From a virus (lineage: Duplodnaviria; Heunggongvirae; Uroviricota; Caudoviricetes), in IMG/VR virus record IMGVR_UViG_3300021467_000082: 64,000 bases of DNA; one strand, given 5' to 3'. The translations under genes and the position numbers were made by a program. The notes below the pieces were generated by a model that saw only the letters and a program-made list of their open reading frames with translations, ran no database searches and was not told the DNA's origin. This document shows, one piece after another, positions 2,457 through 37,451 of the stretch (positions within the stretch are counted from its first letter, which is position 1; the number at the start of each line of letters is the position of its first letter).

Positions 2457-2999
2457 TCATTTCAACTTAATCCAATTATTATCTACTATTTCGCCTAGCT
2501 GCGATGTTTTATAAATTCCATCCTTACGTTTAATTACTATTCCTTCATGTCCGCGTTCCTGCGCTTCCTTTAGGATTTTGAATATTTCATTTGCATTTTT
2601 AAACGGGATTTCTTCAACTTCAATATTGAAAAAGCGTTTTAAAATTTCTAATCGTTCAATTAATGATAAGTATGGTCGAGCAGGCAGAAATATATCGAAC
2701 ATTTTTATCTCCCAAGTACCAGTTTTAATTGCCCTCTTTACTTTATGTTCAGTTTGCATTTTACTAGAAATAATCTCTCCGTCCAATTGATAGTCAAAAC
2801 CTAATACTGGATAATTGACTTTAATGTTTATTGGTTTCCCTTTTCGCGTAAAGCATTCATTATCATTTATAACTATTCGCCATCCTCTATATTTGGGTTG
2901 AATTATCCAATTTTCTGGATCAATGTTCGGCTGTAAAATAGTTGTTGGCCTTGGCGGGTACCATATTATTGCCTTCTCTCTTCTCAGACTCCACACCAT
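2457..2999 (-). CDS. ATP-dependent DNA ligase, C-terminal part of the nucleotidyltransferase domain (motifs III, IV EGIVIK, V WIKLK); ends directly after motif V with no OB domain
   Basis: Motifs FDYQLDGEII, EGIVIKRKDGIYK, NNWIKLK typical of T7/Chlorella-virus-like ligases. Confidence 0.75.
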   Translation of the reverse strand: MVWSLRREKAIIWYPPRPTTILQPNIDPENWIIQPKYRGWRIVINDNECFTRKGKPINIKVNYPVLGFDYQLDGEIISSKMQTEHKVKRAIKTGTWEIKMFDIFLPARPYLSLIERLEILKRFFNIEVEEIPFKNANEIFKILKEAQERGHEGIVIKRKDGIYKTSQLGEIVDNNWIKLK

Positions 3000-3531
3000 C
3001 GTTCTTCTCCTCTATCAATAAAAATTCACTTGCTCTGACTGTGTCTCTTATTTTCTCATATACTTTATAAACAACTCCAGAATTTAATTCTGCCCTGGTC
3101 AATTTTGATAATAGTGTTCTTATGAATAGCCTTAATTTTCTATAACCGTCTTCACCACCATTTATAATACACCTATCAATAACTTGGCTATCATATTGTT
3201 CTGGAGTTATTACCTGGCCACCAATAAACCCCCTAACTGCTCCATCCTCAGTATGAATCACATAGGTACCGATACCACAAAAATTTAATGATTCCACTGA
3301 ATCGGTGTCATAACCTTTCAATTTAAGTTGTTGTTTCTCAAATTCACTTTCAAATTTCCTATATTTCTTTCCGCCTGCTCCTTTGAAACCACGTTTGGCC
3401 GCTGCGAAAAATATGGCCCTAGATAATCCCAACGATTTCGCTTCTTCAGGATCATATCCTATTAATTCTGCTGCTTCTTTGTAGACAATAGCGCACACGG
3501 GAAATCTATTTATCCAATACTTCCTCGCCAT
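2920..3531 (-). CDS. DNA ligase N-terminal part (unknown N-domain plus motif I KNDG near the C-terminus); 80-nt overlap in another frame with 2457-2999
   Basis: LLIEEKNDGVE contains KxDG (adenylation lysine codon at 3004-3006); the ORF stops 25 codons later while motifs III-V continue in the other frame. Confidence 0.65.
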   Translation of the reverse strand: MARKYWINRFPVCAIVYKEAAELIGYDPEEAKSLGLSRAIFFAAAKRGFKGAGGKKYRKFESEFEKQQLKLKGYDTDSVESLNFCGIGTYVIHTEDGAVRGFIGGQVITPEQYDSQVIDRCIINGGEDGYRKLRLFIRTLLSKLTRAELNSGVVYKVYEKIRDTVRASEFLLIEEKNDGVESEKREGNNMVPAKANNYFTAEH

Positions 3532-3654
3532 CTTGGTCCTCCTTTTCTTCTTCTGCTATACGTTTACTTTCTTCATAAAATATTCTTCTCATATTAAAAT
3601 CTGCGTCATGAATTAATATTTGTTCAATTCCTGTATTTGACATAGACATCTCCT

Positions 3655-4182
3655 TCACATTATTTCTTCTTCTGCTGCTAATTTAACTAGCTCGGTGAGA
3701 CTACATGCAGTAATATCGTAAACGGTAAAATAAGCAATAGTCGCATCTATACCTACACTATCATCAACCAAATATTCTACCGCAAATATAAAGAAATCAC
3801 TATGATCCATAAGCCCTGTCTGTTTTAGAATAAGTTCTAATTCATTTCGTTTATCTCCTTCTTCAATAAATATAATATGTTTCAGTTTCGAAGCGTGCAT
3901 CCGTTTTATTCTATTGAATATAGTAGATGCTAATACAGCGATGTCTTCAGAAATATTTGTAAAATTGTATACACAGTAAGCAGCTGTAAATTGTAAATCC
4001 TCGTGTAATTCCCATTCTTTAAGCTTTTCTGAGTGTATCCGCATATCTACATCGATCCAGCCCGTAAATTTTAAAATATTTGCTATAGTATTGGGCACAT
4101 CGTGAAACGTATAAAATCCTTTTTTTACATTGTTCCTTTTAAAGAACTGTTGAAGCGTATCTATAGTAGACCTATAAGTCAT
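3655..4182 (-). CDS. paralog 1 of a tandem triplicated family (YCVYNF...IFxRIKxM...IEEGDKRxELELILKQ), function unknown
   Basis: Clear pairwise similarity among the three adjacent ORFs. Confidence 0.6.
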   Translation of the reverse strand: MTYRSTIDTLQQFFKRNNVKKGFYTFHDVPNTIANILKFTGWIDVDMRIHSEKLKEWELHEDLQFTAAYCVYNFTNISEDIAVLASTIFNRIKRMHASKLKHIIFIEEGDKRNELELILKQTGLMDHSDFFIFAVEYLVDDSVGIDATIAYFTVYDITACSLTELVKLAAEEEIM

Positions 4183-4237: not shown

Positions 4238-4777
4238 CTAATCTAGTTTTATATTTTTCTTTGCTGCTCTTGGTAGGCCAATTAACTTAACAATATTAGA
4301 CACATCGTGGTAAACTGTGAGATAAGCAATTGTTAAGTCTTTCTCATCGTCAGTTATATGATCTGCTACAAAAGTATAGTCCATAAACTCCATTTGTTTT
4401 AATATAAGCTCTAATTTATCTCGTTCGTCGCCTTCTTCAATAAATACAATATATTTACCACGCTCATTCCTTGAAGAATACATATTCTTTATTCTACTGA
4501 ACAAAATAGTTGCTAATGTGTTAACATCATCAACAGTCTTTGTAAAATTGTATACACAATAAGTACATGCGACCCGTAATCGTCCATGTAAGTACAATTC
4601 TGTAGTCTTCCCTGGGTTTATTGACACAGACGGTCCCATATAGCCTGTTGACATTAAAATATTTGTTACTATACTGGGTACACCATGAAATATATAAGGC
4701 CCCTTTCTCACATTATACGTCGCAAAAAATTCTCTAAATTTGTCTATGATAGTTTTATAAGCCATTTTATTCACCAT
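4238..4777 (-). CDS. paralog 2 of the triplicated family
   Basis: Shared motifs CTYCVYNF, LFSRIKNMY, VFIEEGDERDKLELILKQ. Confidence 0.6.
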   Translation of the reverse strand: MVNKMAYKTIIDKFREFFATYNVRKGPYIFHGVPSIVTNILMSTGYMGPSVSINPGKTTELYLHGRLRVACTYCVYNFTKTVDDVNTLATILFSRIKNMYSSRNERGKYIVFIEEGDERDKLELILKQMEFMDYTFVADHITDDEKDLTIAYLTVYHDVSNIVKLIGLPRAAKKNIKLD

Positions 4778-4867: not shown

Positions 4868-5602
4868 TTATTCATACAGCCTATGTACTAACTCTTTAAT
4901 GTTGGCTACATCATAACGTAAGTAAAGACATGCTATAGTTATAGCGTATTCAGAATCTTTTTCTGTAAAAAGTTTTACCTCAAAATGAGTTTTTTCATCA
5001 TCAAGTAAACCTGTTCGATTTACCAAGGCGGTCAATTCATCGCGTTTATCTCCCTCTTCAATTAATAGAATAGTCTTTACATCTTCTCCGTCATACATAT
5101 TTTTTATTCGGCCAAATAAAATGGCAGCTAATCTGTCAATATCAGTGTTATCGCCTATAAAATTATATACACAATAATTAATTGTATCGTGTAATGCCGA
5201 TTGTAAATCCCATTCTGCTATTTTATCTGGATCTATTTTATGACTATCCGCGTCTCTAACAACGAAATCTGCTGAATGTAAAGTCATATCTACATTGATG
5301 CAGCCTGTTGCTTTCAAGATCTCAATAATTTTCTGTGGTGCATCTTGAATAACATAATATCCACCAACACCATTTTTATACAAAAAATCGCCTATTTTTT
5401 TTATTAGTGTCTCTTTATTCATATCTGGTTGTTCCTTTTCATTTTTCAACATATCACCAAGATCGGAAACTACTAATCTACCATCTCCATCAATACGTAC
5501 ATTTGTGGTACAATTTACTAAAGTATAATCGTAATTCAAAGTATAATTGCAATTCGTAGTATAATGGTATTTAGTATTGTTATCAAAATAACACATACTC
5601 AT
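4868..5602 (-). CDS. paralog 3 of the triplicated family, with an N-terminal extension
   Basis: Shared motifs NYCVYNF, LFGRIKNMY, LLIEEGDKRDEL. Confidence 0.6.
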   Translation of the reverse strand: MSMCYFDNNTKYHYTTNCNYTLNYDYTLVNCTTNVRIDGDGRLVVSDLGDMLKNEKEQPDMNKETLIKKIGDFLYKNGVGGYYVIQDAPQKIIEILKATGCINVDMTLHSADFVVRDADSHKIDPDKIAEWDLQSALHDTINYCVYNFIGDNTDIDRLAAILFGRIKNMYDGEDVKTILLIEEGDKRDELTALVNRTGLLDDEKTHFEVKLFTEKDSEYAITIACLYLRYDVANIKELVHRLYE

Positions 5603-6140: not shown

Positions 6141-7511
6141 TTATTTTAGCACATTAGATAAATAATTTTTAGCTTCATCCAGTAATTTATTCTTTCTGTT
6201 TAAATTCTGATCTTCTATTACCAATCCCAAAAGATAATTCAACACGTGTCCAACAGTTGGACCAGGCTTTAAATTAAAATATTCAATTAAATCATCTCCG
6301 CTAATATCTAAGTCCTTAACACTTAGGGCCTTAGATTTCTCATAAACTTCTATAATATGCTCTTCAAACAGTTCCTGTCTATGCGATACTTCACTTAAAT
6401 TTCCACCATTTGCTAATCTATCAGCTCGACGCACTAGAAACAGTGGAAAATTTTCTAGATCTTTCAAATCTTTTTCTTTAATACCTACTTTTTTAATAAA
6501 GCGCCTTATCGCAGAATCTTTCCATTTCTTTGGATCATAATTATACATATGATTATAAACTAAATCACCAACTTCCTTAACCAATTTTGGTTCATATTTA
6601 AGTTTCCTTAAGAACCTTTTAACTATAGTTTTACCCTTAACTTCGTGATTGTAGAAAGTAATTCTACGTTCACCATTTTTCACTATCTCGGCTTGTGTGT
6701 AAGCTTTGCCGATATCATGAAATAAGGCAGCTAATTTTACTTTCAAATCAGGTACGGCATATTCACATGCTAAAACGCAATGCGTAAATACATCATACTT
6801 ATGATATTTCGGATTCTGTTTAACTCCTCTGCACATAGCCAATTCTGGCAATATAGTATATATTAATCCAGAATTCAACAATAATGTGAAATACTTGGAG
6901 GATTTCTTACTCATAACTATTTTATTAAATGCTTCCCTTATTCTATTAACAGTAGTATTATTAATATCCAAATTTTTTGAATTTGCAATTATAGCATGTA
7001 ATAATCTATTATTTAAATCATAACTTAATTCAGCGGCTAGTCCTACCGCTTCAATCATTACTACAGGATCTTTAACTATTACGTAGACAGGGTCATTAAT
7101 AATATCAATAACTTTATTTTTGATTGCTTCAGCCGCACCTGTCAAATCAATAATATTATGATTAGTTACTAATGGAATATACAATCCATGTATGGTGTAA
7201 ATTCTAGTTTGTGCATCCTCTTGCAAACTTATATAAGGATTAATATTACCGTTTAAATCCCTTGGTAATTCAAAAATTGCAATTGTATCTTCGTCTACGA
7301 CTTCTACTATACCTTGTTTCTTCCTAGATGTGACATTATTAAAATGCCTATTTAAATATTTACTAATAGACATCAAAGACAAATTTCTAACTAGGAATCT
7401 ATATTCCGTAGGCCGCTTTCGTCTAACTATATCTCTAGCACAACTACCAGAATAATAGACTTCAGCCTTAGTATCACGTATTAGTTTTCTTGCTATTTGT
7501 TTTATCTTCAT
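6141..7511 (-). CDS. HD-domain protein related to CCA-adding/poly(A) polymerase family enzymes, with a degenerate head motif (SGSCARD, no DxD)
   Basis: N-terminal YYSGSCARDIV resembles the GGxVRD head motif but lacks the catalytic DxD; central HD motif FTHC...LFHDIGKAYTQ. Confidence 0.6.
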   Translation of the reverse strand: MKIKQIARKLIRDTKAEVYYSGSCARDIVRRKRPTEYRFLVRNLSLMSISKYLNRHFNNVTSRKKQGIVEVVDEDTIAIFELPRDLNGNINPYISLQEDAQTRIYTIHGLYIPLVTNHNIIDLTGAAEAIKNKVIDIINDPVYVIVKDPVVMIEAVGLAAELSYDLNNRLLHAIIANSKNLDINNTTVNRIREAFNKIVMSKKSSKYFTLLLNSGLIYTILPELAMCRGVKQNPKYHKYDVFTHCVLACEYAVPDLKVKLAALFHDIGKAYTQAEIVKNGERRITFYNHEVKGKTIVKRFLRKLKYEPKLVKEVGDLVYNHMYNYDPKKWKDSAIRRFIKKVGIKEKDLKDLENFPLFLVRRADRLANGGNLSEVSHRQELFEEHIIEVYEKSKALSVKDLDISGDDLIEYFNLKPGPTVGHVLNYLLGLVIEDQNLNRKNKLLDEAKNYLSNVLK

Positions 7512-8334
7512 AGATTCTACGCCTCATTGCTTTATTTAATCTCTTCTTAAGTTTTCTAACTTTATTACCGACACTAACAGCAGATACACCCATCTCTTTA
7601 GATAATTCTCTTAATGAGGTCTGGTTAACGTAATATTGCCATAATAATTCAAATTCTTCGTCTGTTAATAGATCCATTAACCATTCAATATTCTTACTGG
7701 TATCTAATGAATTGACGACATAATCTTCATAGTCCTCAAATTCAATTAGATTAGCGTTTACATCTGACAATTGTAATGGTAATGGTTCAATCCGCTTTAA
7801 TAAATTATACACAGATACAGATGATCTATTAGCCAACGCCGAGAACTTCTTTGTTGTTTCTTTGATTTTCTTATCTAGTTCAGTACGAACTGTGCGTTTC
7901 TCAGCCAATTCCCATATATCGAAAATATTCAATAGATCAAGCTGTTCCCCAGCTTGACCCAGTAACTCTCTTAACATTATCAGTAATCTAATACCATCCC
8001 TAAGATATTGCGGAATTTTAAGAGAAACTTCTTGCTTAGTTAAAAATTCCCTCATAGCATTCTTTATGTAATAAATAGCAAAGATCTTAAATGATTTATC
8101 TCCAGAACTCCTAGTTTTGTCAAAAGCTCTAACCGCTCTGGCTAAACCTATTAAACCTTCTTGAAATAAATCATCTGGATCTGCACCAAATACAGTATAA
8201 TTCCGAGCTAAAAGGCTTATAATCTGACTAAATTTGTTGTAATTCTCTAAGGCTTCTTCTTCTGTATCACCTAAAAAGAACGGACAAAAATCTTCATCTT
8301 GGCGTATTGGCATCGGTAAACCTCTATACATCAA
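7474..8334 (-). CDS. sigma-70 family RNA polymerase sigma factor
   Basis: Region 2 DDLFQEGLIGLARAVRAFD...YYIKNAMREF; C-terminal region 4 HTH TSLRELSKEMGVSAVSVGNKVRKLKKRL. Confidence 0.8.
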   Translation of the reverse strand: MMYRGLPMPIRQDEDFCPFFLGDTEEEALENYNKFSQIISLLARNYTVFGADPDDLFQEGLIGLARAVRAFDKTRSSGDKSFKIFAIYYIKNAMREFLTKQEVSLKIPQYLRDGIRLLIMLRELLGQAGEQLDLLNIFDIWELAEKRTVRTELDKKIKETTKKFSALANRSSVSVYNLLKRIEPLPLQLSDVNANLIEFEDYEDYVVNSLDTSKNIEWLMDLLTDEEFELLWQYYVNQTSLRELSKEMGVSAVSVGNKVRKLKKRLNKAMRRRIYEDKTNSKKTNT

Positions 8335-10204: not shown

Positions 10205-10607
10205 TAAGCTTATAATTTCTATTGTAACCTCTACAATAAGCGATTGGTTCCATTCCTAATCTTAAATTATTCCTAATATTTATAGTATTAGTACTACGTA
10301 CCAAACCGTATACATACTTCGTAGGTGCAAAGTCTATACCTTTCTTTAATAATCGCTTTCCAATTCCCTGACTTCTATAATCTGGGTGAACTGCGAGATG
10401 TTTTAATTCCGTCACATACCCGTTCTTTTTTTGTACACCAATTGTACCAATCACTTTATTTCTATCCATTTCTATTATATATGTAATGTCGCTGCTTAAA
10501 ATATAGTGCGGCAATATAGTGTAATAGAATTGATCGCCGATATTTAATAAATGGGCGATCTGAGCAGCAACATCGTTTTTTGTTAAGGATAGAATGAATT
10601 TATTCAT
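10158..10607 (-). CDS. GNAT family N-acetyltransferase
   Basis: Motif A: LAVHPDYRSQGIGKRLLKKGIDFA. Confidence 0.75.
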   Translation of the reverse strand: MNKFILSLTKNDVAAQIAHLLNIGDQFYYTILPHYILSSDITYIIEMDRNKVIGTIGVQKKNGYVTELKHLAVHPDYRSQGIGKRLLKKGIDFAPTKYVYGLVRSTNTINIRNNLRLGMEPIAYCRGYNRNYKLIVFAKAKTVEAYNVG

Positions 10608-11736
10608 TTCTTCTCCTCATTAATAGATCTATTACCGCACGAGCCTCATCGTCGTTTCTCACATTACGTATTACTCTAATGAGACCTTCTTCGCCTTCGT
10701 CTACTGGCGGAAAATTTGCTGCTACTACCTGCGGTGCCTCACCATTGATATTTGCATCTAAGATATTTGCGTTTAAACCCTGATCATCTATCTGGCCACG
10801 CAAATCTACTGCTTGTGCTCCAACGGCTCTTTGTCGCCTATTCAATTCATTTAGTTTCGTATTGAACGCATTTACGTACTTATCAAAAGCCGTTCCTTGC
10901 AGGCCTGGACCGCTGTTTACTTCTATTATATATGGATTATCATTCGTATCTAATGCGCAATCTACAGCTCCAAAATCCAACCCTATTGCTGCAATCGCAT
11001 TAATAGCTGCCGTTTTCAAAGCACTCTTTACATTATTCAGGCTAACACTTCGGAATTTCCATCCTCTGCGATTACTTCTCACTATCCTGTCTGGAATTAT
11101 AACTTCCTTAGAAATTATTTCTAACACCTTATCAATTGTATAATTATCCACGTTCCATTCATTTTTATTGGCGTAATCCAAAACTTTTTCCTTACGCTGT
11201 TCGATCCAATGATTTATATCTGCATTCGGAACTTTCTTTACGGCATAAATAACCTTGCCAAAGGCTACGTGCAGTCTATATTCAGTTTTGACGTCTATAT
11301 ATTCTTGGAAATAATCCGCGCCATCTCCTATTGCATCCTTTACATGTGTCTTCGTCAAACAAACCCAGAGTCCTTTGCCACCTTGATGGAATTTTGTACG
11401 CCCAATTAACGGCAACGATATTACACCTCTGGTAATCTTACCTATAATATCATTTTCTGATCTCTCATATTTTGCAATAGTATTGACCAGATTATTATCT
11501 CGCACCATTATATCCAATGCGTTCAATTTATTTCTGTTTGCTCTAATAGCGTTTGGATGGTTGTATACTGTAATATCAGGATGTATATTAATGTCTCTAT
11601 TCGTTTTGGCACCCCATCCGATAAGCACATCCCCTGGCTGAAGCTCAGGCTTCTCACGCGTTCCATTTATGTTCAAGGTTGTTGCCAACGCTCTACCAGT
11701 TACATCAGTTGCTCCACTATACCATAAATAGATCAT
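10600..11736 (-). CDS. ATP-grasp enzyme (RimK/GshB-like)
   Basis: GRTKFHQGGKGLWVC, QEYIDVKTEYRLHVAFGKVIYAVKK, C-terminal PYIIEVNSGPGLQG. Confidence 0.8.
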   Translation of the reverse strand: MIYLWYSGATDVTGRALATTLNINGTREKPELQPGDVLIGWGAKTNRDINIHPDITVYNHPNAIRANRNKLNALDIMVRDNNLVNTIAKYERSENDIIGKITRGVISLPLIGRTKFHQGGKGLWVCLTKTHVKDAIGDGADYFQEYIDVKTEYRLHVAFGKVIYAVKKVPNADINHWIEQRKEKVLDYANKNEWNVDNYTIDKVLEIISKEVIIPDRIVRSNRRGWKFRSVSLNNVKSALKTAAINAIAAIGLDFGAVDCALDTNDNPYIIEVNSGPGLQGTAFDKYVNAFNTKLNELNRRQRAVGAQAVDLRGQIDDQGLNANILDANINGEAPQVVAANFPPVDEGEEGLIRVIRNVRNDDEARAVIDLLMRRRNE

Positions 11737-13049
11737 AATGTTTCCTCCGCAAATTTTAATTTTCTGTTATATTTCCATGCTGACTTGAAATATGGAGTTA
11801 CCCTCAATTCTTTCTCTTTTAGGCCTCTATTTACCAATTCTATGAATGTATCTATATATTTATTATATTTATTATATGTGGGCAATTCTTTAAGCTTTTG
11901 CAAAATATTTTTAACTAAACTATCATCTAATTCCCCGTGCACCTCTAATATTGGTTTAAGTCCGTCTCGGCCCAGATCTACACCAAATTCTTTACTTACA
12001 GCTAACTCTGGCAATAGATTCATATCATCGCCTAGAAAAGTGTGAGTATCCGTATATATAGGAGTAAATGCTTTAGCAATACCTTTCCTTTCGAGGTACT
12101 TATAATATGCCTCAGCTATTGCTTTAGCTGTGCCCAACACGGCTTTTGCTATTGTTGGATGCTTCAACCAGGCTCCACTAACTACTCTATATTCTAGCCT
12201 GTCTCTGTCGGTACGAAAATCACTTACTCTTCCATAATTAGATTTTCTCCGTCTATAAACTGACTTCTCTGCCCCTTCAATTATCATAAACGGAATAGCC
12301 AAAAGATAATTCAGAATATAATGCAAAACTGTAAACATCGAATATTTGGTATCGGGATCATTAATACCTTCTAATATCAATCTTGGCGTGCCTATGTGAA
12401 TATGACCGCCTATCCCATACACACAGGGCTCAATTGTATCAGGTTCAAAGAAAGGATCGGCATACCATGTGTATTTGTCAATTAACTCGACTTTTTCATC
12501 GTTGGTCAAAATAGTTTTAATATTCTCTATAAATTTGTCCACACTAATCTCTGGCTCTGGCCGTAGTTCGGCTAGTGGACCGTCATGTGCCAGTTTCCCC
12601 ATATGTCCAAGACCTTGAACATGAGAGGCATAAATAAATTGTTTAGAATTCAATAAAACGAATTCTGGATCAGCGCCAATTATTATATCGTCAATTGAAT
12701 CAGCAATCCAAATATTATCTACTTTGTTATCAGCTATATCTCCGCATAGATAATTAAACGTTTCTGAGGTTACAAAGCCAACTCTCAGGTAGTCTTCTTC
12801 TGACATTGTCTTTTTTATTTCTTTTAGGTCGGCGCTATAAGCGTGATATATATTAAGCACTAATCCTCTATTAACTCGTTTTGAAGTATCTCCATCTGGC
12901 CATAACTCAACCACTTTTTCTCTTTCCAGACCAAGATTTTCTCTAGCTTTTCTGCCAATCCTTATTAATTTGCGCTCGCTACGTTTCTCGTTTCTCCTCA
13001 CATTCCTATCCATTTTTTTAGAAACTACTAATATAATTCCGTTTTTCAT
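11733..13049 (-). CDS. amidoligase paralog A (GCS2/YbdK-like carboxylate-amine ligase family)
   Basis: ADPEFVLLN..., AELRPEP, GIGGHIHIGTP; the same motifs recur in 18222-19418 and 34397-35677. Confidence 0.6.
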   Translation of the reverse strand: MKNGIILVVSKKMDRNVRRNEKRSERKLIRIGRKARENLGLEREKVVELWPDGDTSKRVNRGLVLNIYHAYSADLKEIKKTMSEEDYLRVGFVTSETFNYLCGDIADNKVDNIWIADSIDDIIIGADPEFVLLNSKQFIYASHVQGLGHMGKLAHDGPLAELRPEPEISVDKFIENIKTILTNDEKVELIDKYTWYADPFFEPDTIEPCVYGIGGHIHIGTPRLILEGINDPDTKYSMFTVLHYILNYLLAIPFMIIEGAEKSVYRRRKSNYGRVSDFRTDRDRLEYRVVSGAWLKHPTIAKAVLGTAKAIAEAYYKYLERKGIAKAFTPIYTDTHTFLGDDMNLLPELAVSKEFGVDLGRDGLKPILEVHGELDDSLVKNILQKLKELPTYNKYNKYIDTFIELVNRGLKEKELRVTPYFKSAWKYNRKLKFAEETL

Positions 13050-14809
13050 TTTTCTACCTCGACAATTGATTTTATTTTTTCTAACTCCTCAGAATTAAAC
13101 ACCGATCGCAATTTATTAATCGTTTTATCTATATCTTCATGTTTATCATTTTTACCCTGATTAGCTATCAAATTTATTACTAGCTTCTTCAATTCATATA
13201 TATATTGACTACGTTTAGTTGACTTCTCTATCCATTTATAGTCCAGGTCTTCCATCGTTGCAGCCATAAAACCTTCTTTCCAGGCAACCTTATAGACTCT
13301 ATTCGCAATAATGGTAGGACCAAGCGAATCGAGCAAAGCCTCGCTAGTAATATCTATTCGATCCATTAATTCTTCATCACTCAAAAAACCTTTCTTATTT
13401 AATGGTAATTCCTGATACGCTAGTTCTGCTGTTTCTCTCACTTCAACAGGTATAGTATTTATATCGACTTCAACTGTTTCTACATTGTTATTGTCTGTGT
13501 CTTTAGCGTCATCCTTACCATTATTTGTTTCTTTAGCATCATCAACCGTATCTGCTTCTGCCACCGCATAGCTGGTTTTATCTTCTATAGTAACTGGTGG
13601 ACTAGCGACTTCTTCTTCAGAATCCATATCATATCCTAGATTCTCATTAGAATCGACATCAATAATCACCCCATTACTGGCAGTTAGCACCTTATCGCCG
13701 GCTTTTACAACATACTTTTTGGTGATATTATCAAATACTCTACGTGGCACTGCTTTATTTTCTTCCTTTTTAGGCTCTTCTTTGGCATTTTCTTTCTTGT
13801 CAGTTTCAGTTTTATTTTGGGCTGCTGTGTTTCTACTTGCATAACTACTTTGATATCCAGCACTACCGCCTTGATGCCTAGTGCCATAAGAATAGCCAGA
13901 CTTAGTAGTCGTTTGGGTATCAACCCATAATTTGGGATATCTAGCCATCTTCTTACTTTCACTGATATCATCTATTGTCGTATTTTCGTCTACATTAGCA
14001 TCCAAATTAAAGATAACGGCTGTATCGTCTGGCATAGTTTCTAACAACACATTATCTTTCTTGACTAGGCTGGGAAGTAATTCTTTGTCTTGATAATAAT
14101 TCGCTAGCCTTTCATATCGAGGCCATACAGCTGTCCAAAATTTACGTTCTGACATCATCAATAATATACCCAAACTTCTTATCAACACAAACTCTACAGG
14201 CCTTGCATCCCTAAACACCGGTACTTGCTTCAAGTTGTCTGCATTAAACAACACTACTGCAAACTGGCCTTGTAGCCTGGTTACAACTTCTTGAATCATA
14301 TCCAATGTAAATGGTTCAGTGCCTTTTTTCGTAAAATGGTCGAGCAATCTAAATATAGCTTCACTATCGACTTCACCATCTCTCTTGCATTTCAAGCGCT
14401 TAAAAATTTCCTCATGGTTTCTCAAAGTCCCATTATGAATGCCGACCAAATTACCTATTTTAATAGGATGATTATTTACATTTTTATAAGTATTTCCATA
14501 AGTTGCTGCTCTGCAGTGGCCTAAATATACTCTAGCGGGAGTTTCATGTTCTTTCCACACTTTGATAAGCCCGCCATAATATTCGCTTGAATTCCCAAAT
14601 TTATGTATGAAAGAACTTACTTTTTCGCCACGTTTCATACCATAGAAATTGCCATCATTGAATAAAACAGCAGCTCCTACTGCATCTTTGCCCCTTGTCT
14701 CTGTCTCCACTAGCAGCTCAGTAGTAAGAACTCTTAAAACTCTTTGTCTTGTTGCTTCTTCTTTTTTCGTTTTCTTTCCCAGTGTTAAACCAACAACTAT
14801 TCCGCACAT
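13046..14809 (-). CDS. class-II glutamine amidotransferase (Ntn, N-terminal Cys) domain protein with a low-complexity linker and C-terminal extension
   Basis: MCGIVVG..., RGKDAVG, GHCRAATYG...NNHP, GIHNGTLRNHEEI, DSEAIFRLL. Confidence 0.8.
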   Translation of the reverse strand: MCGIVVGLTLGKKTKKEEATRQRVLRVLTTELLVETETRGKDAVGAAVLFNDGNFYGMKRGEKVSSFIHKFGNSSEYYGGLIKVWKEHETPARVYLGHCRAATYGNTYKNVNNHPIKIGNLVGIHNGTLRNHEEIFKRLKCKRDGEVDSEAIFRLLDHFTKKGTEPFTLDMIQEVVTRLQGQFAVVLFNADNLKQVPVFRDARPVEFVLIRSLGILLMMSERKFWTAVWPRYERLANYYQDKELLPSLVKKDNVLLETMPDDTAVIFNLDANVDENTTIDDISESKKMARYPKLWVDTQTTTKSGYSYGTRHQGGSAGYQSSYASRNTAAQNKTETDKKENAKEEPKKEENKAVPRRVFDNITKKYVVKAGDKVLTASNGVIIDVDSNENLGYDMDSEEEVASPPVTIEDKTSYAVAEADTVDDAKETNNGKDDAKDTDNNNVETVEVDINTIPVEVRETAELAYQELPLNKKGFLSDEELMDRIDITSEALLDSLGPTIIANRVYKVAWKEGFMAATMEDLDYKWIEKSTKRSQYIYELKKLVINLIANQGKNDKHEDIDKTINKLRSVFNSEELEKIKSIVEVEK

Positions 14810-15846
14810 GATTGCATACTCCTTTCACCTTTCTTCAGAGTGAAATTCTTTAGAACTGCCCAAATAAATTTCGCTATGTCTATATGGTTCGCGACAAGCA
14901 CATTTTTCTCACCGTCTAACTCCATTAAATCGTCTTTATTGTCAGATCCTCCCAATATATAATTTAATACATAATAATTGCGAGTATAATACGATATATT
15001 ATCAAAAATACTCGATGTTAATTGAATCAAGAGACAATATATATCATCATTGATAAATGTAGGGAAAAAGTCTTCATATTTAAAATATGTTATATTAACT
15101 TTATCCACAGTTGCATAATAGGTATCATGTCCATCTGACAATAAATTTGTATATTTAAACGAACGATTAAATTCCTGAATATACTGTTCTATTATATTAA
15201 GAAGTTTCTCAATATTACTCTTGTTGACATTATTAAATGAGAAATTCACAAATCTATATTTATCCACCAATGCTCTAATATTATAAGGATTGGCTATGTT
15301 TATAGAATGTGCCAACTCCAATCTCTTATAAACATTGCCCGAGTATGTTGGTATTTGTGACAAATCTTCAACATTATTCGTTATGTCATTTTCTAATTTA
15401 ACCGGTTTAATTAAACCATCCACAAGCTCGTCCTTCTCCATGTCTATATTTACTTGTATGTGGTGATCCATAAACATAATGGGTTTATTTATTAGCTTTA
15501 AATCTTCAATCTCTCCTATCGAATGTTTACTACTAATTGTAAGTGGTATCTGTGTTAACTCAAACTTTGGAGTGTTAAATAAAAATACTGGTAAATATAG
15601 ATTGTCCCTATAATCATAATTATTTTTTACAATATTTAGTAAAATTTCTTTTGCTCGTTCAATATTAGCCAAACCTTCCCTATCGTCGGTTTTTACTTTA
15701 GCAAAAGATACGATAAACGGCACCCCTAGCATATCTAGATTCGTTTGATTAAACATCTTCATGCATAGCCGCTTTTTCGCATACGCTAAGAACGAATATT
15801 TAAATGTGATCTCGTCCTCCAATAATTTTATAAATTGTAAATCCAT
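14797..15846 (-). CDS. hypothetical protein
   Basis: ORF track, 349 aa; overlaps neighbours by a few nt (operonic). Confidence 0.5.
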   Translation of the reverse strand: MDLQFIKLLEDEITFKYSFLAYAKKRLCMKMFNQTNLDMLGVPFIVSFAKVKTDDREGLANIERAKEILLNIVKNNYDYRDNLYLPVFLFNTPKFELTQIPLTISSKHSIGEIEDLKLINKPIMFMDHHIQVNIDMEKDELVDGLIKPVKLENDITNNVEDLSQIPTYSGNVYKRLELAHSINIANPYNIRALVDKYRFVNFSFNNVNKSNIEKLLNIIEQYIQEFNRSFKYTNLLSDGHDTYYATVDKVNITYFKYEDFFPTFINDDIYCLLIQLTSSIFDNISYYTRNYYVLNYILGGSDNKDDLMELDGEKNVLVANHIDIAKFIWAVLKNFTLKKGERSMQSCAE

Positions 15847-15854
15847 AGTCTACC

Positions 15855-16628
15855 TCAACCGATAAGATTAGTTTTGAAAATTTTTCCTGTCAACACATCG
15901 ATTCTAACTATTTCGTTTTTTAATGTTATTTCACTACTTCTATTATTAGCAAATCTTCCGTAATTTTCTATTACGCCTAATATTTGAGCAGTCGATGCGA
16001 AAGTTATAACGTTTTCTTTTTTATAAATTCGCATGACTAATGGCGTATAGCTATTATCCCTAAATAGAACAACATATCTAGGATTCTTTCTATAGATAAA
16101 CGCACAGGCCATAGAACCTATGAGACGCGGTACTGTAAATTTAACGCTCTCTATCAGTGATTTACCCATTTTAAGATATTCATCTATCAATCTAAATATA
16201 ATTTCACTGTCCACCTGCCCATTGCGCTTTAACTGTGTATTAGTCTCAAATAAAACATCATCATTAGAAATTACACCATTATGAATACCTATTACATCAG
16301 ATGCTATTATAGGGTGATTGTTAAAATTATTAATAAATGGGCCTTTAGTCTGCGCTCTGGTATGCCCTAATATAGCTTTAGTCCTCGTGCCTATTTGTAT
16401 AGTATCAAATATCTTCTTTACTTCTTCATCTTCCACCAGCTTATTCGAGCGAACATAATTTTTATAAGTATATATTTTATCCTCATTCAAAACTACAATA
16501 CCACTGGCGTCAGATCCTCTAATTGCACATGCTTTAAACATATCTATAAATGAATTCTTCAATTGGTATTCTATAATTCTATTTGGAATTCTCTCTCCAC
16601 AATAGATAATTCCACATAACCCGCACAT
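15855..16628 (-). CDS. class-II glutamine amidotransferase domain protein (short)
   Basis: MCGLCGI..., RGSDASG, GHTRAQTKG...NNHP, GIHNGVISNDD, DSEIIFRLI. Confidence 0.8.
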   Translation of the reverse strand: MCGLCGIIYCGERIPNRIIEYQLKNSFIDMFKACAIRGSDASGIVVLNEDKIYTYKNYVRSNKLVEDEEVKKIFDTIQIGTRTKAILGHTRAQTKGPFINNFNNHPIIASDVIGIHNGVISNDDVLFETNTQLKRNGQVDSEIIFRLIDEYLKMGKSLIESVKFTVPRLIGSMACAFIYRKNPRYVVLFRDNSYTPLVMRIYKKENVITFASTAQILGVIENYGRFANNRSSEITLKNEIVRIDVLTGKIFKTNLIG

Positions 16629-16639
16629 ACTTTGCCTCC

Positions 16640-18259
16640 TTAAATCGAAATAATGGTTCCTAATTTAGAGGACCAGATTAAATTGCCTTCTCTAATTCCA
16701 TCTTCAATATAATTCTTGACGTCATCACTTGTTATCTTTACATCGCTAGTTTCGTTTACAATTTCAGTAACATTTCTTATCCATTCTTCTACATCTGTAC
16801 AATCATCTACTAATCTTAAATCTATAGCCTCATCTATTTTAATTTCCACTTGACTCTCTTTATTTAGTCTCACTTCTAAAGACTTTTCGATATCATCCCA
16901 CTTATCTCCTTCTATACGCCTCAACGCTACTGGCTTGTAAGCCAATTTTTCTAATACATCGTATGCAGGCCCAAGTTTAATTAAGATATTCTTCATTTGA
17001 GCCAACATATCCATAGCCTCTTCTCTAAAATATTCGGCGTGATCTAGCAATTCACTGGTATTACTGAATCTTGGTTCACTATAACTTTTGTGAGCTCCAT
17101 TCAAAATAACGTTTTTCATCTCTTTAGCTTTTGGATCATCCAATACTAATAGGCCATATCTGCTAATTTCTACTGCCTTTATTACAAAGGCGAAATGCAA
17201 ACAGGCCAGTGCCGCGTATATAGATGGACACAGCGTAGCATCTGCTTCCCTAAACTCTATATGAAATATTTCTACATCGCCATCAGGAGAAAAACGGCAA
17301 TTTTTATAATTTACAAAACCGTATTTATTACCGCCAGAATTATTTATAATCTTCTCAGATACTCTATACATCTGGCTTTTAACTGGAGATATATCTAGAA
17401 TGCTAACTCTAAACTTTTCCCATCTTGTCATGTGATTTGGATCTCCTAACGCCATTGTTATCCATGTTAATGCGTTTTGGTACTTCCTAATCAATTGATG
17501 CAAATTTGCCAGTATAATCTCTGGCATAGGCCTTTCCAATTCATTGGTGTTTTCATAGTATGATGCCAAAACATGCATGTGGGCGCCACATCGTTCATTC
17601 ACATATGCACCATGTTTCTTGGCCATATCCAGAATTTTCTTTGACATAGTATAAAATTCCCAATAGTTTACTCTCCTACCTACAGTTATAATCTCTACTC
17701 CACCGTCGTCAACCAAAGACCCATCTTTAGTAATCCGTACAACACCGCTTCCTACTTTACCATATGAACCGCTGGGTTTGAACGCATTTTTAAACTTTTT
17801 CCTCACTTCAGCAGGGGGCAAACTTTTGCGTTGATATTTTTCACATGTTTTACATGCCTTAACAAAATCTTGGCAATTCCAACACCGTGGCGCAAATTCA
17901 TTACAGCCGATTCCTATACATACAAAGCTATAATTTTCACAGTGCTGACAATTCTCAGGCTTACAATCCTCAGATCTGTTACCACACGTTTCTAGCGATG
18001 CAACGTTTCTACAATACGTCGTATTTGCACAGTCACTCCAACATTGCCTATTAGTCATATAATAGCATCCGCACTTTAAATTTCCACCAGCGCATCCATC
18101 TTTACCTTTTGGTAAATTCAACTCGAACTCAATGCCGACTTTCAAGATTCTATACAGTATATCTTTCCAATACCGTATCTCATGGGCATCAAGATGTTTG
18201 TCGATTCTAACATTTTTCTTGTCAGTTATGAATTTCCATTTGTTTCTGTTGTCTCTCAT
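16640..18259 (-). CDS. cysteine-rich protein (about 30 Cys in 110 aa), possibly a divergent amidoligase-like core (GAHMHV)
   Basis: Cys cluster CGCYYMTNRQCWSDC...CKTCEKY; later ERCGAHMHVLAS resembles the HIHIG motif of the paralogs. Confidence 0.4.
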   Translation of the reverse strand: MRDNRNKWKFITDKKNVRIDKHLDAHEIRYWKDILYRILKVGIEFELNLPKGKDGCAGGNLKCGCYYMTNRQCWSDCANTTYCRNVASLETCGNRSEDCKPENCQHCENYSFVCIGIGCNEFAPRCWNCQDFVKACKTCEKYQRKSLPPAEVRKKFKNAFKPSGSYGKVGSGVVRITKDGSLVDDGGVEIITVGRRVNYWEFYTMSKKILDMAKKHGAYVNERCGAHMHVLASYYENTNELERPMPEIILANLHQLIRKYQNALTWITMALGDPNHMTRWEKFRVSILDISPVKSQMYRVSEKIINNSGGNKYGFVNYKNCRFSPDGDVEIFHIEFREADATLCPSIYAALACLHFAFVIKAVEISRYGLLVLDDPKAKEMKNVILNGAHKSYSEPRFSNTSELLDHAEYFREEAMDMLAQMKNILIKLGPAYDVLEKLAYKPVALRRIEGDKWDDIEKSLEVRLNKESQVEIKIDEAIDLRLVDDCTDVEEWIRNVTEIVNETSDVKITSDDVKNYIEDGIREGNLIWSSKLGTIISI

Positions 18260-19418
18260 CGACTAGCCTCCAATTATACTTTAGATTAGCACTAAATTTT
18301 TTCTTACCGGTGACATTCAAAATTGCGTATTTATAATAATTCAAAATAGCTAATTTCTCCTCTTTATATTTCAACATTTTGGTCAAATCATTTACAATAT
18401 TGTTTATCATAGCAACAGCACCGTCTATCTTCTCAGATACTATTGCTTTTTTAACCTCTCCTTTATCTGGAATCGATGGATAAATCATTCTGATATCGTC
18501 ATAGTTGAACTTAAGCTCATTATTAAAATTATCACTGACATACGCTAAACGACTTAACAAATCATTCATCACTATTTTAGATATCGATAAAATTCCATGA
18601 GTATAAATAGGATGTCTTAGTAAATGTCCACCAGGTACTCTATATTCTAATGTCATTTGATCCCACCTATAATCTCCTGGTTTACCATATCTACTAAATC
18701 TTTCTGACCTTCGTACATAATCATCATTACCTTCCGGTAAAATAGCTGATACACCAACATAATAATCTAAAATATCAACTATAAAATCCAACCAATTCAA
18801 TTTTGAAGCACGTAATATTTTCTTTGGCAAACCAAAATGAATATGAAAACCAGCAGACATATTATTACAATGGGATGAACCCAACATAACAATGTCATGT
18901 TTTTTTAATATACCTCTACCAATAATATGGTTATAGACTTTCCTTAATAATACATTTATATGAGCTGTCACTTTTATAGGATTGCTAGACGGCATTGGCC
19001 TCAATTCTGCTAGTCCACAATCATTTCCTATTTCTCCATAATGAGGGAAGAAATGACTAGCTGGAATAGCAAATCCAGTTCTACCATCTACCAAATGAAA
19101 TTCTGGATCACATCCCAACATTACATCGCTAGCAGGAGCGACTGAAATAATTTTATTTCTTCTTAATAAATTATATGTATTACTGCTAACATATGCAACC
19201 TCGCTACCTCTTTCAACATCTTCCTTATACGCAATGCTAACCTGAAGTGCTATAGTATTAATCGCAGTTTTTATATCTAAAAAAAGCCCGGTCATAAGAC
19301 CGAGCTTTTCTCTATATACTTGAGGTATTCTAATTAACCTATCTTCAACTGAACCTAATGGAGATTGTTTTGTATCCATTAAACTCGACGGTCTTATTCT
19401 TAGTTTCATAAGCACCAA
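18222..19418 (-). CDS. amidoligase paralog B
   Basis: GCDPEFHLVD, CGLAELRPMP, GFHIHFGLP. Confidence 0.6.
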   Translation of the reverse strand: MVLMKLRIRPSSLMDTKQSPLGSVEDRLIRIPQVYREKLGLMTGLFLDIKTAINTIALQVSIAYKEDVERGSEVAYVSSNTYNLLRRNKIISVAPASDVMLGCDPEFHLVDGRTGFAIPASHFFPHYGEIGNDCGLAELRPMPSSNPIKVTAHINVLLRKVYNHIIGRGILKKHDIVMLGSSHCNNMSAGFHIHFGLPKKILRASKLNWLDFIVDILDYYVGVSAILPEGNDDYVRRSERFSRYGKPGDYRWDQMTLEYRVPGGHLLRHPIYTHGILSISKIVMNDLLSRLAYVSDNFNNELKFNYDDIRMIYPSIPDKGEVKKAIVSEKIDGAVAMINNIVNDLTKMLKYKEEKLAILNYYKYAILNVTGKKKFSANLKYNWRLVDERQQKQMEIHN

Positions 19419-37205: not shown

Positions 37206-37451
37206 TTATGGATCTACTCTCTCCACTACCTTATCTATGAAATTTTGTAATGCTCGTGTAGCGTGAATAGAATCCACTACTATATTCTTTTTAGTGGAAA
37301 ATAGAGGTACTTTCGTTTTCTTGTTATATTTTACTGCAACCACTTTGTTTTCATCAGAGTCATGTTTAAATACTGCAACGATATCATTGTCAGATATTGA
37401 AAGAGCCTCAAAATCAAAACGTGATAGATCAACAGTGTTAATGGTTTCCAT
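37206..37451 (-). CDS. hypothetical small protein
   Basis: ORF track, 81 aa. Confidence 0.4.
   Translation of the reverse strand: METINTVDLSRFDFEALSISDNDIVAVFKHDSDENKVVAVKYNKKTKVPLFSTKKNIVVDSIHATRALQNFIDKVVERVDP

What the first reader, a model, noticed from the sequence alone, without database searches (positions are those of the whole stretch)
2457..3531. ATP-dependent DNA ligase split across two frames, and apparently lacking an OB domain
Motif I (KNDG, lysine codon at 3004-3006) lies near the C-terminus of ORF 2920-3531, which stops 25 codons later. Motifs III, IV (EGIVIK) and V (WIKLK) lie in ORF 2457-2999, in a different frame, with an 80-nt overlap. The two are related by a single +1/-1 shift somewhere in 2920-2999. 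Three explanations are possible: a sequencing indel, a programmed frameshift, or a genuinely split two-chain ligase. The coding region also ends right after motif V, so the usual OB domain and motif VI are missing. The 170 aa upstream of motif I form an unrecognised N-terminal domain. A ligase with an NTase domain only would be unusual. Given the RNA-repair gene context it might act on pre-adenylated or RNA-containing nicks.
Basis: seen in the sequence. Interest (0 to 1): 0.6.

Follow-up and report, generated by a model that had tools for sequence, protein, structure and literature searches.

The report
OB-less mini DNA ligase with partner
The ligase gene is not broken: it is a complete, unusually small DNA-ligase catalytic domain with no OB domain, and in phage-type contigs it almost always follows an uncharacterised partner gene, which suggests an undescribed two-protein DNA ligase.

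Summary
The "motif I" (KNDG, 3004-3006) is a chance match. It lies in a non-conserved, predicted-disordered tail created by a window-specific 30-nt insertion.

The real motif I is K36-Y-R-G-W-R (2877-2894), inside ORF 2457-2999. [quoted passage not shown] Three independent assemblies carry the same sequence with no indels. The frame offset between the two genes is 0, 1 or 2 in different clades. This rules out a sequencing error and a conserved frameshift.

The missing OB domain is real and conserved. About 50 of the top 150 clusters at 50% identity end within 30 aa of motif V. By sequence and predicted fold the protein groups with ATP-dependent DNA ligases, not RNA ligases.

ORF 2920-3531 is a separate conserved protein with a confident predicted structure, not an OB fold and not assignable to any known family. 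In phage-type loci the mini ligase lies directly downstream in 10 of 10 IMG/VR loci and 24 of 26 metagenome loci. Neighbours in relatives are clamp loader, 5'-3' exonuclease, Fpg, mini PolX and RNase H-like genes.

Best reading: a two-subunit DNA nick-sealing ligase in which the partner replaces the OB or DNA-binding domain. This is inferred, not shown.

The parts
2457..2999 (-). [quoted passage not shown]
   Evidence: Pfam PF01068 E=6.6e-12. phrog_114 ATP-dependent DNA ligase E=8e-18. AF2 model pLDDT 87.9. The top 50 Foldseek PDB hits are all ATP-dependent DNA ligases, TMq 0.61-0.76. Homologues are 169-192 aa and all end at motif V.
2920..3531 (-). Partner gene: 203 aa with a conserved core at residues 1-172 (3016-3531) and no recognisable family. 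The tail, residues 173-203, is not conserved and is predicted disordered.
2920..2999 (-). 80-nt overlap between the partner tail and the ligase start; the two genes are translationally coupled
   Evidence: In relatives the same junction overlaps by 8-50 nt or is separated by a gap of up to about 24 nt.
2877..2894 (-). True motif I, K36-Y-R-G-W-R. The Lys nucleophile codon is 2892-2894. Arg replaces the canonical Asp.
   Evidence: Aligned to KLDGVR of 8u6x. K36 is nearly invariant (at least 90%) and G39 is invariant in the family. The third residue is R, D or N depending on the clade.
2775..2783 (-). Motif III, D73-G74-E75
   Evidence: E75 is nearly invariant.
2688..2699 (-). Motif IIIa region, F101-D102-I103-F104
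   Evidence: D102 is invariant.
2529..2546 (-). Motif IV, E152-G-I-V-I-K157
   Evidence: G153 and K157 are invariant.
2460..2474 (-). Motif V, W176-I-K-L-K180, followed directly by the stop codon at 2457-2459
   Evidence: W176 is invariant and K178 nearly invariant. The ORF ends here in the closest relatives.
2995..3006 (-).
2967..2996 (-). Window-specific 30-nt in-frame insertion (approximate limits). It adds 10 aa to the ligase N-terminus and creates KNDG in the other frame.
   Evidence: DNA alignment with L001 and L002.
3007..3012 (-). Shine-Dalgarno-like GAGGAG, 7 nt upstream of the ligase ATG at 2997-2999
   Evidence: Read from the sequence. L001 has GAGGAA at the equivalent place.
3538..3543 (-). 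Shine-Dalgarno-like AGGAGG, 6 nt upstream of the partner ATG at 3529-3531
   Evidence: Read from the sequence.

Best explanation
Two adjacent, translationally coupled genes encode a two-protein polynucleotide ligase. [quoted passage not shown] ORF 2920-3531 encodes a basic protein of about 170 aa with no recognisable relatives.

I infer that this partner binds the mini ligase and supplies in trans what the OB domain or DNA-binding domain normally supplies. That means closing over the ATP site for self-adenylylation (step 1) and/or clamping the nicked duplex for AMP transfer (step 2). The most likely substrate is nicked DNA during phage replication and repair, for example Okazaki-fragment or base-excision gap sealing.

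Shown: the gene structure, motif content, fold class, absence of an OB domain, conservation and genomic linkage. Inferred: physical complex formation, the partner's role, and the substrate.
For: Catalytic domain:
- The NTase motifs are complete and conserved.
- Sequence profile and predicted fold match ATP-dependent DNA ligases first. PDB profile hits to DNA ligases reach E=4e-14, against 5e-3 for NgrRnl. The top 50 Foldseek hits are all DNA ligases.

OB-less state:
- It is conserved. About 50 of the top 150 clusters at 50% identity end within 30 aa of motif V.
- All linked ligases end 0-8 aa after the profile end.

Linkage with the partner:
- A search seeded only with the partner found the mini ligase directly downstream in 10 of 10 IMG/VR loci.
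- The same holds in 24 of 26 phage-type metagenome loci that have enough downstream sequence, and in L017, L019, L020, L022 and L026.
- Searching from the ligase side, the one new mini ligase found (L043) has the partner upstream, separated only by an inserted HNH gene. Two full-length NT+OB ligases (L044, L045) have no partner.
- Junctions overlap by 8-50 nt or are separated by up to about 24 nt, which suggests translational coupling.

Other support:
- Both proteins are basic, median pI about 8.7.
- Context in relatives: gp44-like clamp loader, 5'-3' exonuclease and Fpg; mini PolX; RNase H-like.
- Literature: in ATP-dependent DNA ligases the OB domain is required for step 1 (PMC1807946) and NT+OB is considered the minimal scaffold (PMC7470946). 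An OB-less enzyme therefore plausibly needs a helper.
- Precedent for an accessory domain supplied in trans: trypanosome REL1 with KREPA2 (PMC4366279).
Against: - No direct evidence of interaction or activity exists. I could not model the complex.
- The partner is not an OB fold and has no detectable similarity to ligase DNA-binding domains. Its proposed role rests on linkage alone.
- Distant partner homologues occur alone in a TM6 bacterium and in Thermoplasmata and Nitrososphaerales MAGs. One phage-type locus (L050) has no ligase nearby. The partner therefore has, or can have, a ligase-independent function.
- The motif I Asp is replaced by Arg in this clade. By my recollection of the ligase literature this Asp matters for catalysis, so the substitution could mean altered or reduced activity.
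- At least one related contig also encodes a canonical NAD-dependent LigA. The module is therefore not necessarily the replicative ligase.
- The window itself is rich in RNA-repair genes.
Confidence: 0.55

Rival explanations
1. The mini ligase works alone as a stand-alone NTase. For example, it might seal pre-adenylylated nicks, or self-adenylylate without an accessory domain. The partner would then be a functionally related but separate factor, such as a DNA-end binder, a clamp or replisome adaptor, or a regulator.
For: T4 Rnl2 forms ligase-AMP without its C domain, and DraRnl lacking its N domain still seals pre-adenylylated nicks (PMC1807946). Partner homologues exist without any ligase in archaea, a TM6 bacterium and L050. 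The partner has no similarity to any known ligase accessory domain.
Against: In ATP-dependent DNA ligases, the clade this NTase belongs to, the OB domain is required for step 1 (PMC1807946), and OB-deleted mutants do not support catalysis (PMC7470946). The near-obligate, coupled gene pairing holds across clades that share less than 30% ligase identity.
Confidence: 0.2
2. The module is an RNA or RNA/DNA-hybrid ligase that serves the phage's RNA-repair system.
For: The window encodes RtcB, two CCA-adding or poly(A)-polymerase-like enzymes and a Thg1-like protein. Pfam also gives a sub-threshold RNA_ligase match, E=1.8e-5. The non-Asp residue in motif I recalls KxHG in DraRnl (PMC1807946) and, by my recollection, in T4 Rnl2. 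Ending right after motif V with a module encoded upstream mimics the Rnl5 layout (PMC1807946).
Against: Sequence and fold rank DNA ligases far above RNA ligases. The RNA-repair genes lie 3-36 kb from the module and do not travel with it. The recurrent neighbours in other phages are DNA replication and repair genes.
Confidence: 0.15
3. One reading: a single ordinary ligase gene broken by a sequencing indel, or rejoined by programmed ribosomal frameshifting.
For: Two overlapping ORFs in different frames, and a KxDG tetrapeptide near the end of the upstream ORF.
Against: Three independent assemblies carry the same sequence with no indels. The true motif I is inside the downstream ORF. KNDG is not conserved. 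Frame offsets of 0, 1 and 2 occur across clades, each with its own start codon. No fused homologue appears among the proteins retrieved.
Confidence: 0.02
4. The mini ligase is a catalytically degenerate or non-ligase NTase. It might be a decoy, a protein or nucleotide AMPylase, or part of a conflict system, with the partner as its target or regulator.
For: The motif I Asp is replaced by Arg or Asn in many members, and the motif I Arg is variable. There is no OB domain. L043 and a few other members carry substitutions of key lysines.
Against: The Lys nucleophile, the motif III Glu, the motif IV Lys and the motif V Lys are invariant or nearly so. There are no PADLOC hits. The genomic context is replication and repair.
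Confidence: 0.08

Closest known systems
Minimal ATP-dependent DNA ligases (Chlorella virus PBCV-1 ligase, bacterial Lig E)
   Same: The NTase fold and motifs I-V match. They are among the best structural and sequence matches: 1fvi, 6gdr, 4d05 and 8u6x. The best NCBIfam model is the Lig E-type PRK09125. These ligases also have no extra DNA-binding domain.
   Different: They keep the OB domain with motif VI, and NT+OB is described as the minimal scaffold (PMC7470946). The family here stops at motif V, and in phage-type loci it almost always follows an unrelated partner gene. The motif I Asp is Arg in this clade.
Kinetoplastid RNA-editing ligases REL1/REL2 with KREPA2/KREPA1
   Same: A catalytic-domain-only ligase receives the missing substrate-binding domain in trans from a separate protein that stimulates adenylylation and ligation (PMC4366279). 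This is the closest precedent for the proposed mechanism.
   Different: Those ligases are eukaryotic Rnl2-type RNA ligases with their own helical C-terminal region, and the trans factor is an OB fold. Here the NTase is of the DNA-ligase type, and the partner's model shows helices plus only three strands, which I judge incompatible with an OB fold.
Rnl5 clade RNA ligases (DraRnl, NgrRnl)
   Same: The NTase ends shortly after motif V with no C-terminal domain. The accessory module lies N-terminal, that is upstream, and is needed for adenylylation and nick sealing (PMC1807946).
   Different: In Rnl5 the module is fused and is a putative OB fold. NgrRnl is only a weak sequence match, E about 5e-3, against 4e-14 for DNA ligases.
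Bacteriophage T5 NAD-dependent DNA ligase subunits A and B
   Same: A phage DNA ligase annotated as two adjacent genes (PMC3632103).
   Different: It is an NAD-dependent enzyme, described only as ligase subunits A and B. By my recollection it is a canonical multidomain ligase cut in two. Here the second protein has no detectable homology to any ligase domain.
Stand-alone alpha-helical ligase DNA-binding domain reported in jumbo phages (Iyer et al. 2021, PMC7824862)
   Same: A small stand-alone protein proposed to work with a ligase encoded elsewhere.
   Different: That protein is reported as a homologue of the ATP-dependent ligase DNA-binding domain in phages that lack a ligase. The partner here shows no detectable similarity to ligase DNA-binding domains. 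It has no tblastn match in the 50,697 GenBank phage records.

Membership tests
ATP-dependent DNA ligase / covalent nucleotidyltransferase superfamily | Motif I lysine nucleophile in a KxDGxR context | tested here: met
   K36-Y-R-G-W-R aligns to KLDGVR of 8u6x. K36 is nearly invariant (at least 90%), G39 is invariant, and the protein has R41.
ATP-dependent DNA ligase / covalent nucleotidyltransferase superfamily | Asp at the third position of motif I (KxDG) | tested here: not met
   Arg in the window and its clade. Asp or Asn in more distant mini ligases.
ATP-dependent DNA ligase / covalent nucleotidyltransferase superfamily | Motifs III, IIIa, IV and V in order with canonical spacing | tested here: met
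   DGE (73-75), FD (101-102), EGIVIK (152-157) and WIKLK (176-180), with the key residues invariant or nearly so. PF01068 is above its cutoff.
ATP-dependent DNA ligase / covalent nucleotidyltransferase superfamily | NTase (adenylation domain) fold | tested here: met
   AF2 pLDDT 87.9. The top 50 Foldseek PDB hits are all DNA ligases, probability 1.00, TMq 0.61-0.76.
ATP-dependent DNA ligase / covalent nucleotidyltransferase superfamily | C-terminal OB domain carrying motif VI | tested here: not met
   The ORF stops directly after motif V. The same is true in the linked homologues. No OB-family match was found for the partner or the downstream 82-aa ORF, and the partner model does not look like an OB fold.
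ATP-dependent DNA ligase / covalent nucleotidyltransferase superfamily | ATP-dependent self-adenylylation and nick sealing | not testable with these tools
   Needs biochemistry.
Rnl5 (DraRnl/NgrRnl) RNA ligases | Fused N-terminal OB-like module, and closest sequence affinity to Rnl5 NTase domains | tested here: not met
   The two proteins are separate. The partner is not OB-like. NgrRnl scores E about 5e-3 against 4e-14 for DNA ligases.
Ligase with accessory domain in trans (REL1/KREPA2 type) | The accessory protein is an OB fold that binds and stimulates the ligase | tested here: not met
   The OB fold is not met. Binding and stimulation cannot be tested here. The module is proposed to work like this system, not to belong to it.
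Programmed-frameshift gene | Conserved frame relation and slip site, with the fused product being the conserved unit | tested here: not met
   The frame offset is 0, 1 or 2 in different clades, each downstream gene has its own ATG, and no fused homologues were found.
Known anti-phage defence systems (PADLOC) | Match to a defence-system protein model | tested here: not met
   No hits for either protein.

The most novel reading that the evidence does not exclude
The pair is a genuine heterodimeric DNA ligase. The catalytic subunit is a bare 170-180-aa NTase domain, the smallest DNA-ligase catalytic unit known. A protein of novel fold, not an OB domain, provides both the step-1 (adenylylation) and DNA-clamping functions. 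In this clade an arginine replaces the motif I aspartate, which by my recollection of ligase structures helps position the catalytic metal; the substitution may change metal or cofactor use. This would overturn the view that NT+OB is the minimal DNA-ligase scaffold, and it would define a new accessory-domain class. That class also exists as a stand-alone protein in archaea and TM6 bacteria.
Probability: 0.4. Interest if true: 0.8.

Novelty: new variant of a known kind. Interest (0 to 1): 0.62.

Why it matters
Reviews state that a DNA ligase needs at least an NTase domain and an OB domain, and that the OB domain is required for self-adenylylation (PMC7470946, PMC1807946). This window belongs to a family with dozens of clusters at 50% identity, found in large uncultured phages and at least one bacterial MAG. 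The family has dispensed with the OB domain, and in nearly every phage-type locus examined its gene sits next to one uncharacterised gene.

If the pair is an active ligase, three things follow:
- It shows a second way to build a DNA ligase.
- It assigns a function to a protein family with no annotation.
- It offers a very small, two-part ligase scaffold for enzymology and biotechnology.

There is also an annotation problem. Public gene calls truncate this ligase to 100 aa because of the gene overlap.

Tried and rejected
- Megablast of the region and tblastn of both proteins against 50,697 GenBank phage records gave nothing, apart from one marginal ligase hit. No cultured relative is known.
- The partner was searched against Pfam, PHROGs, NCBIfam, PADLOC and PDB sequence profiles, with no hit.
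- AFDB50 Foldseek was unavailable.
- I looked for a fusion of partner and ligase among 231 retrieved proteins and found none.
- I considered the 82-aa downstream ORF as the missing OB domain and rejected it. It has no family hit, I aligned it only with the two closest relatives, and the more distant loci carry different downstream genes.
- I considered a resemblance between the partner's N-terminal NRFPxC and ligase motif VI (RFPRF...RxDK). I rejected it as unsupported, because the RxDK part does not align and the fold differs.
- Reverse locus search from the ligase side: A5 was too divergent to seed patterns. A1 and A8 gave few new loci.
- A third protein search with A5 added little.
- A phrase search of the literature for OB-less ligases returned only irrelevant papers, because of prefix matching.
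- I could not model the heterodimer.

Full report
OBSERVATION

On the minus strand there are two ORFs: 2920-3531 (203 aa) and 2457-2999 (180 aa). They lie in different frames and overlap by 80 nt. The tetrapeptide KNDG, with its Lys codon at 3004-3006, lies 25 codons before the stop of the upstream ORF. DGEI, EGIVIK and WIKLK lie in the downstream ORF, which stops immediately after WIKLK.

Pfam matches the C-terminal half of PF01068 to residues 77-180 of the 180-aa ORF. A PDB sequence search aligns residues 28-167 to the Lig E-type ligase 8u6x, and this places K36-Y-R-G-W-R on KLDGVR. K36 lies 39 residues before the motif III glutamate E75; by my recollection that is about the spacing seen in Chlorella virus ligase.

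All seven close homologues are 169-192 aa, apart from one truncated gene call. They carry K[YW]RGWR at this position and end at motif V. In a 35-sequence family alignment G39, D102, R116, G153, K157 and W176 are invariant. K36, E75 and K178 are nearly invariant.

KNDG, by contrast, has several marks of a chance match:
- It is absent from the nearest relatives. L001 reads EKKNDVV there.
- It lies within a 30-nt in-frame insertion specific to the window.
- It sits in a tail that is not conserved across 43 family members and has pLDDT below 50.
- KxDG occurs 8 times in about 22,000 residues of long ORFs in this window.

The ligase catalytic domain is therefore entire and lies within one ORF. It probably starts at ATG 2997-2999, which is preceded by GAGGAG at 3007-3012.

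NO ARTEFACT AND NO FRAMESHIFT

Three contigs from other samples and assemblers (L023-L025) carry the same 1201 nt with 2-3 substitutions and no indels. Across the family the downstream gene lies in frame offset 0, 1 or 2 relative to the upstream gene. It always has its own ATG at the start of the conserved YPPxP N-terminus. Junctions range from a 50-nt overlap to a gap of about 24 nt. No fused protein appears among the 231 retrieved sequences. These are two polypeptides that are probably translationally coupled.

THE OB-LESS STATE IS REAL AND IS A FAMILY TRAIT

A full HMMER scan of 1.84 billion cluster representatives found 31 hits at E<=1e-10, almost all 170-200 aa. Of the top 150 representatives, about 50 are complete NTase domains that end within 30 aa of motif V. 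All ligases found next to a partner end 0-8 aa after the profile end.

The AF2 model is confident, with pLDDT 87.9. Its 50 best Foldseek PDB matches are all ATP-dependent DNA ligases: ASFV, archaeal, Lig IV, Chlorella virus, Lig E, LigD, T4 and T7, with TMq 0.61-0.76. A family profile hits DNA ligases at up to E=4e-14. RNA ligases score far lower: Rnl3 PAB1020 at 5e-6 and NgrRnl at 5e-3.

The third residue of motif I is Arg in the window's clade and Asp or Asn in more distant clades.

THE UPSTREAM ORF IS A SEPARATE, CONSERVED, UNCLASSIFIED PROTEIN

- A profile search found 74 homologues of 104-287 aa at E<=1e-3. The 50 strongest (E<=1e-26) are 147-249 aa. None has a Pfam domain or an informative name.
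- Pfam, PHROGs, NCBIfam, PADLOC and PDB profiles give no match.
- The AF2 model has pLDDT 85.6, with the core mostly above 90. It shows two N-terminal helices, a clade-specific low-confidence helix, three strands at 74-103, a long helix at 110-141 and short C-terminal helices.
- It is not an OB fold.
- Invariant residues are S33, R38, F41, F42, A45, F84, G86, Y158, R162, D163 and R166. N8, R9, P11, C13 and K46 are nearly invariant.
- Both proteins are basic, with a median pI of about 8.7.

LINKAGE

I searched collections with the partner alone.
- In 10 of 10 IMG/VR loci the mini ligase lies immediately downstream.
- In the metagenome scan, 24 of the 26 phage-type loci with enough downstream sequence have it.
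- The exceptions are L050, whose partner has a long C-terminal extension and has no ligase within 2.2 kb, and a TM6 bacterial contig.

From the ligase side:
- L022 has the partner directly upstream.
- L043 has the partner upstream with an HNH/AP2 gene inserted between the two.
- Two full-length NT+OB ligases picked up in the same scan have no partner.

A bacterial MAG carries the pair (L017, L026) among housekeeping genes. Distant partner homologues (E 1e-10 to 1e-17) occur alone, without conserved neighbours, in Thermoplasmata, Nitrososphaerales and one other high-GC MAG (Candidatus Fervidifonticultor quartus).

CONTEXT

In relatives the module is flanked by:
- a gp44-like clamp loader, a 5'-3' exonuclease and Fpg;
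- a 166-261-aa PolX-like polymerase;
- an RNase H-like protein.

One contig also encodes an NAD-dependent LigA.

In the window the nearest recognisable genes are a CCA-adding-like enzyme, a sigma factor and RuvB. RtcB, a second CCA-like enzyme and a Thg1-like protein lie further away. No other DNA-ligase or ligase-OB Pfam family was found among the window's ORFs of 150 aa or more.

The recurrent context across genomes is therefore DNA replication and repair. The RNA-repair flavour is specific to this window.

MECHANISM

What is shown:
- a complete DNA-ligase-type NTase with an intact Lys nucleophile;
- no OB domain and no motif VI;
- near-obligate coupling to a basic partner protein.

From the literature:
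- The OB domain is required for step 1 in ATP-dependent DNA ligases, whereas some RNA ligases adenylylate without their accessory domain (PMC1807946).
- NT+OB is regarded as the minimal scaffold, and OB-deleted mutants are inactive (PMC7470946).
- Trypanosome editing ligases receive an OB domain in trans from KREPA2/KREPA1 (PMC4366279).
- T5 encodes a two-gene NAD-dependent ligase (PMC3632103).

My inference is that the partner binds the mini ligase and substitutes for the OB or DNA-binding domain, in adenylylation, in nick clamping or in both, so that the two form a two-subunit DNA nick-sealing ligase. I give this about 0.55.

Rivals:
- The ligase acts alone and the partner is a separate factor (0.2).
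- An RNA or hybrid ligase (0.15).
- A degenerate or non-ligase NTase (0.08).

NOVELTY

I found no description of this pairing in the searchable literature. I found no family model for the partner and no cultured phage carrying either gene.

A stand-alone ligase DNA-binding domain reported in some jumbo phages (PMC7824862) appears to be a different protein.

I classify the module as a new variant of a known kind: an ATP-dependent DNA-ligase NTase in a new two-protein architecture.

VERDICT

Its second point, no OB domain, is right and turns out to be the interesting part. Interest 0.62.

Noticed in passing
window 2935-2961 (-): A 27-nt block, GTACCCGCCAAGGCCAACAACTATTTT, inside the partner/ligase overlap is identical in the window and L001 and has one mismatch in L002. 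In the rest of the ligase gene only about 35% of same-amino-acid codons are identical across the three sequences. This suggests that both overlapping frames (partner tail VPAKANNYF and ligase WYPPRPTTIL), or an RNA-level signal, are constrained in this clade.
   Followed up: partly
window 3655-4182, 4238-4777, 4868-5602 (-): Three tandem paralogous genes (175, 179 and 244 aa) lie directly upstream of the module. None has a significant Pfam match.
   Followed up: no
window 38843-40177, 37438-38829, 6141-7511 (-), plus one unlocated ORF: An RNA-repair gene set: RtcB, two CCA-adding or poly(A)-polymerase-like proteins with HD domains, and a Thg1-like tRNA-His guanylyltransferase. The last hit came from a batch scan, so its coordinates were not resolved.
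   Followed up: partly
window 24896-28174 (-): A 1092-aa ORF with weak matches to both RNA polymerase Rpb2 domain 6 and Rpb1 domain 2. This suggests a fused or compact two-barrel RNA polymerase subunit. A sigma-70-like gene lies at 7474-8334.
   Followed up: no
window 10600-19418 and 34397-35677 (-): A cluster of phiEco32-like COOH-NH2 ligases (three copies), glutamine amidotransferase domains (two copies) and a RimK-like ATP-grasp protein. This looks like a peptide or amidoligase modification system.
   Followed up: no
L019 9000-9500; L005 4023-4526; L022 3867-4652: Very small PolX-like polymerases (166-261 aa, palm and thumb) lie directly or nearly directly downstream of the partner/mini-ligase pair. 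Together they may form a miniature gap-filling and sealing module, reminiscent by my recollection of the very small ASFV Pol X and its ligase.
   Followed up: partly
L043 2012-2992: An HNH/AP2-type endonuclease gene is inserted between the partner and mini-ligase genes in a GC-rich 230-kb viral contig. The ligase there has WLRML in place of the motif V lysines.
   Followed up: no
L027 2992-3507; L028 2995-3531; L034 2980-3489; L075-L085: Partner-family proteins occur without any mini ligase in a TM6 (Dependentiae) MAG and, more distantly, in Thermoplasmata and Nitrososphaerales MAGs. Their neighbours vary: acyl-CoA dehydrogenase, amidohydrolase and metallophosphatase.
   Followed up: partly
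L017 8001-9042 (contig Ga0233411_10000002, 271 kb): The partner and mini ligase (motif I KFDGWR) sit among bacterial housekeeping genes (TGT, SpoU, GidA, LGT, MraY-like) in an unclassified bacterial MAG. The module is therefore not restricted to phages.
   Followed up: partly
window 2457-2999; P0003; L023-L025: Public gene calls for this exact sequence truncate the ligase to its last 100 aa, starting at M83, presumably because of the 80-nt overlap with the upstream ORF. Catalogues therefore under-report this family.
   Followed up: yes
window 3506-3658 (-); L001 5360-5497; L023 2117-2254: A small ORF of about 45-50 aa that overlaps the start of the partner gene is also called in related contigs. 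I did not examine its conservation.
   Followed up: no
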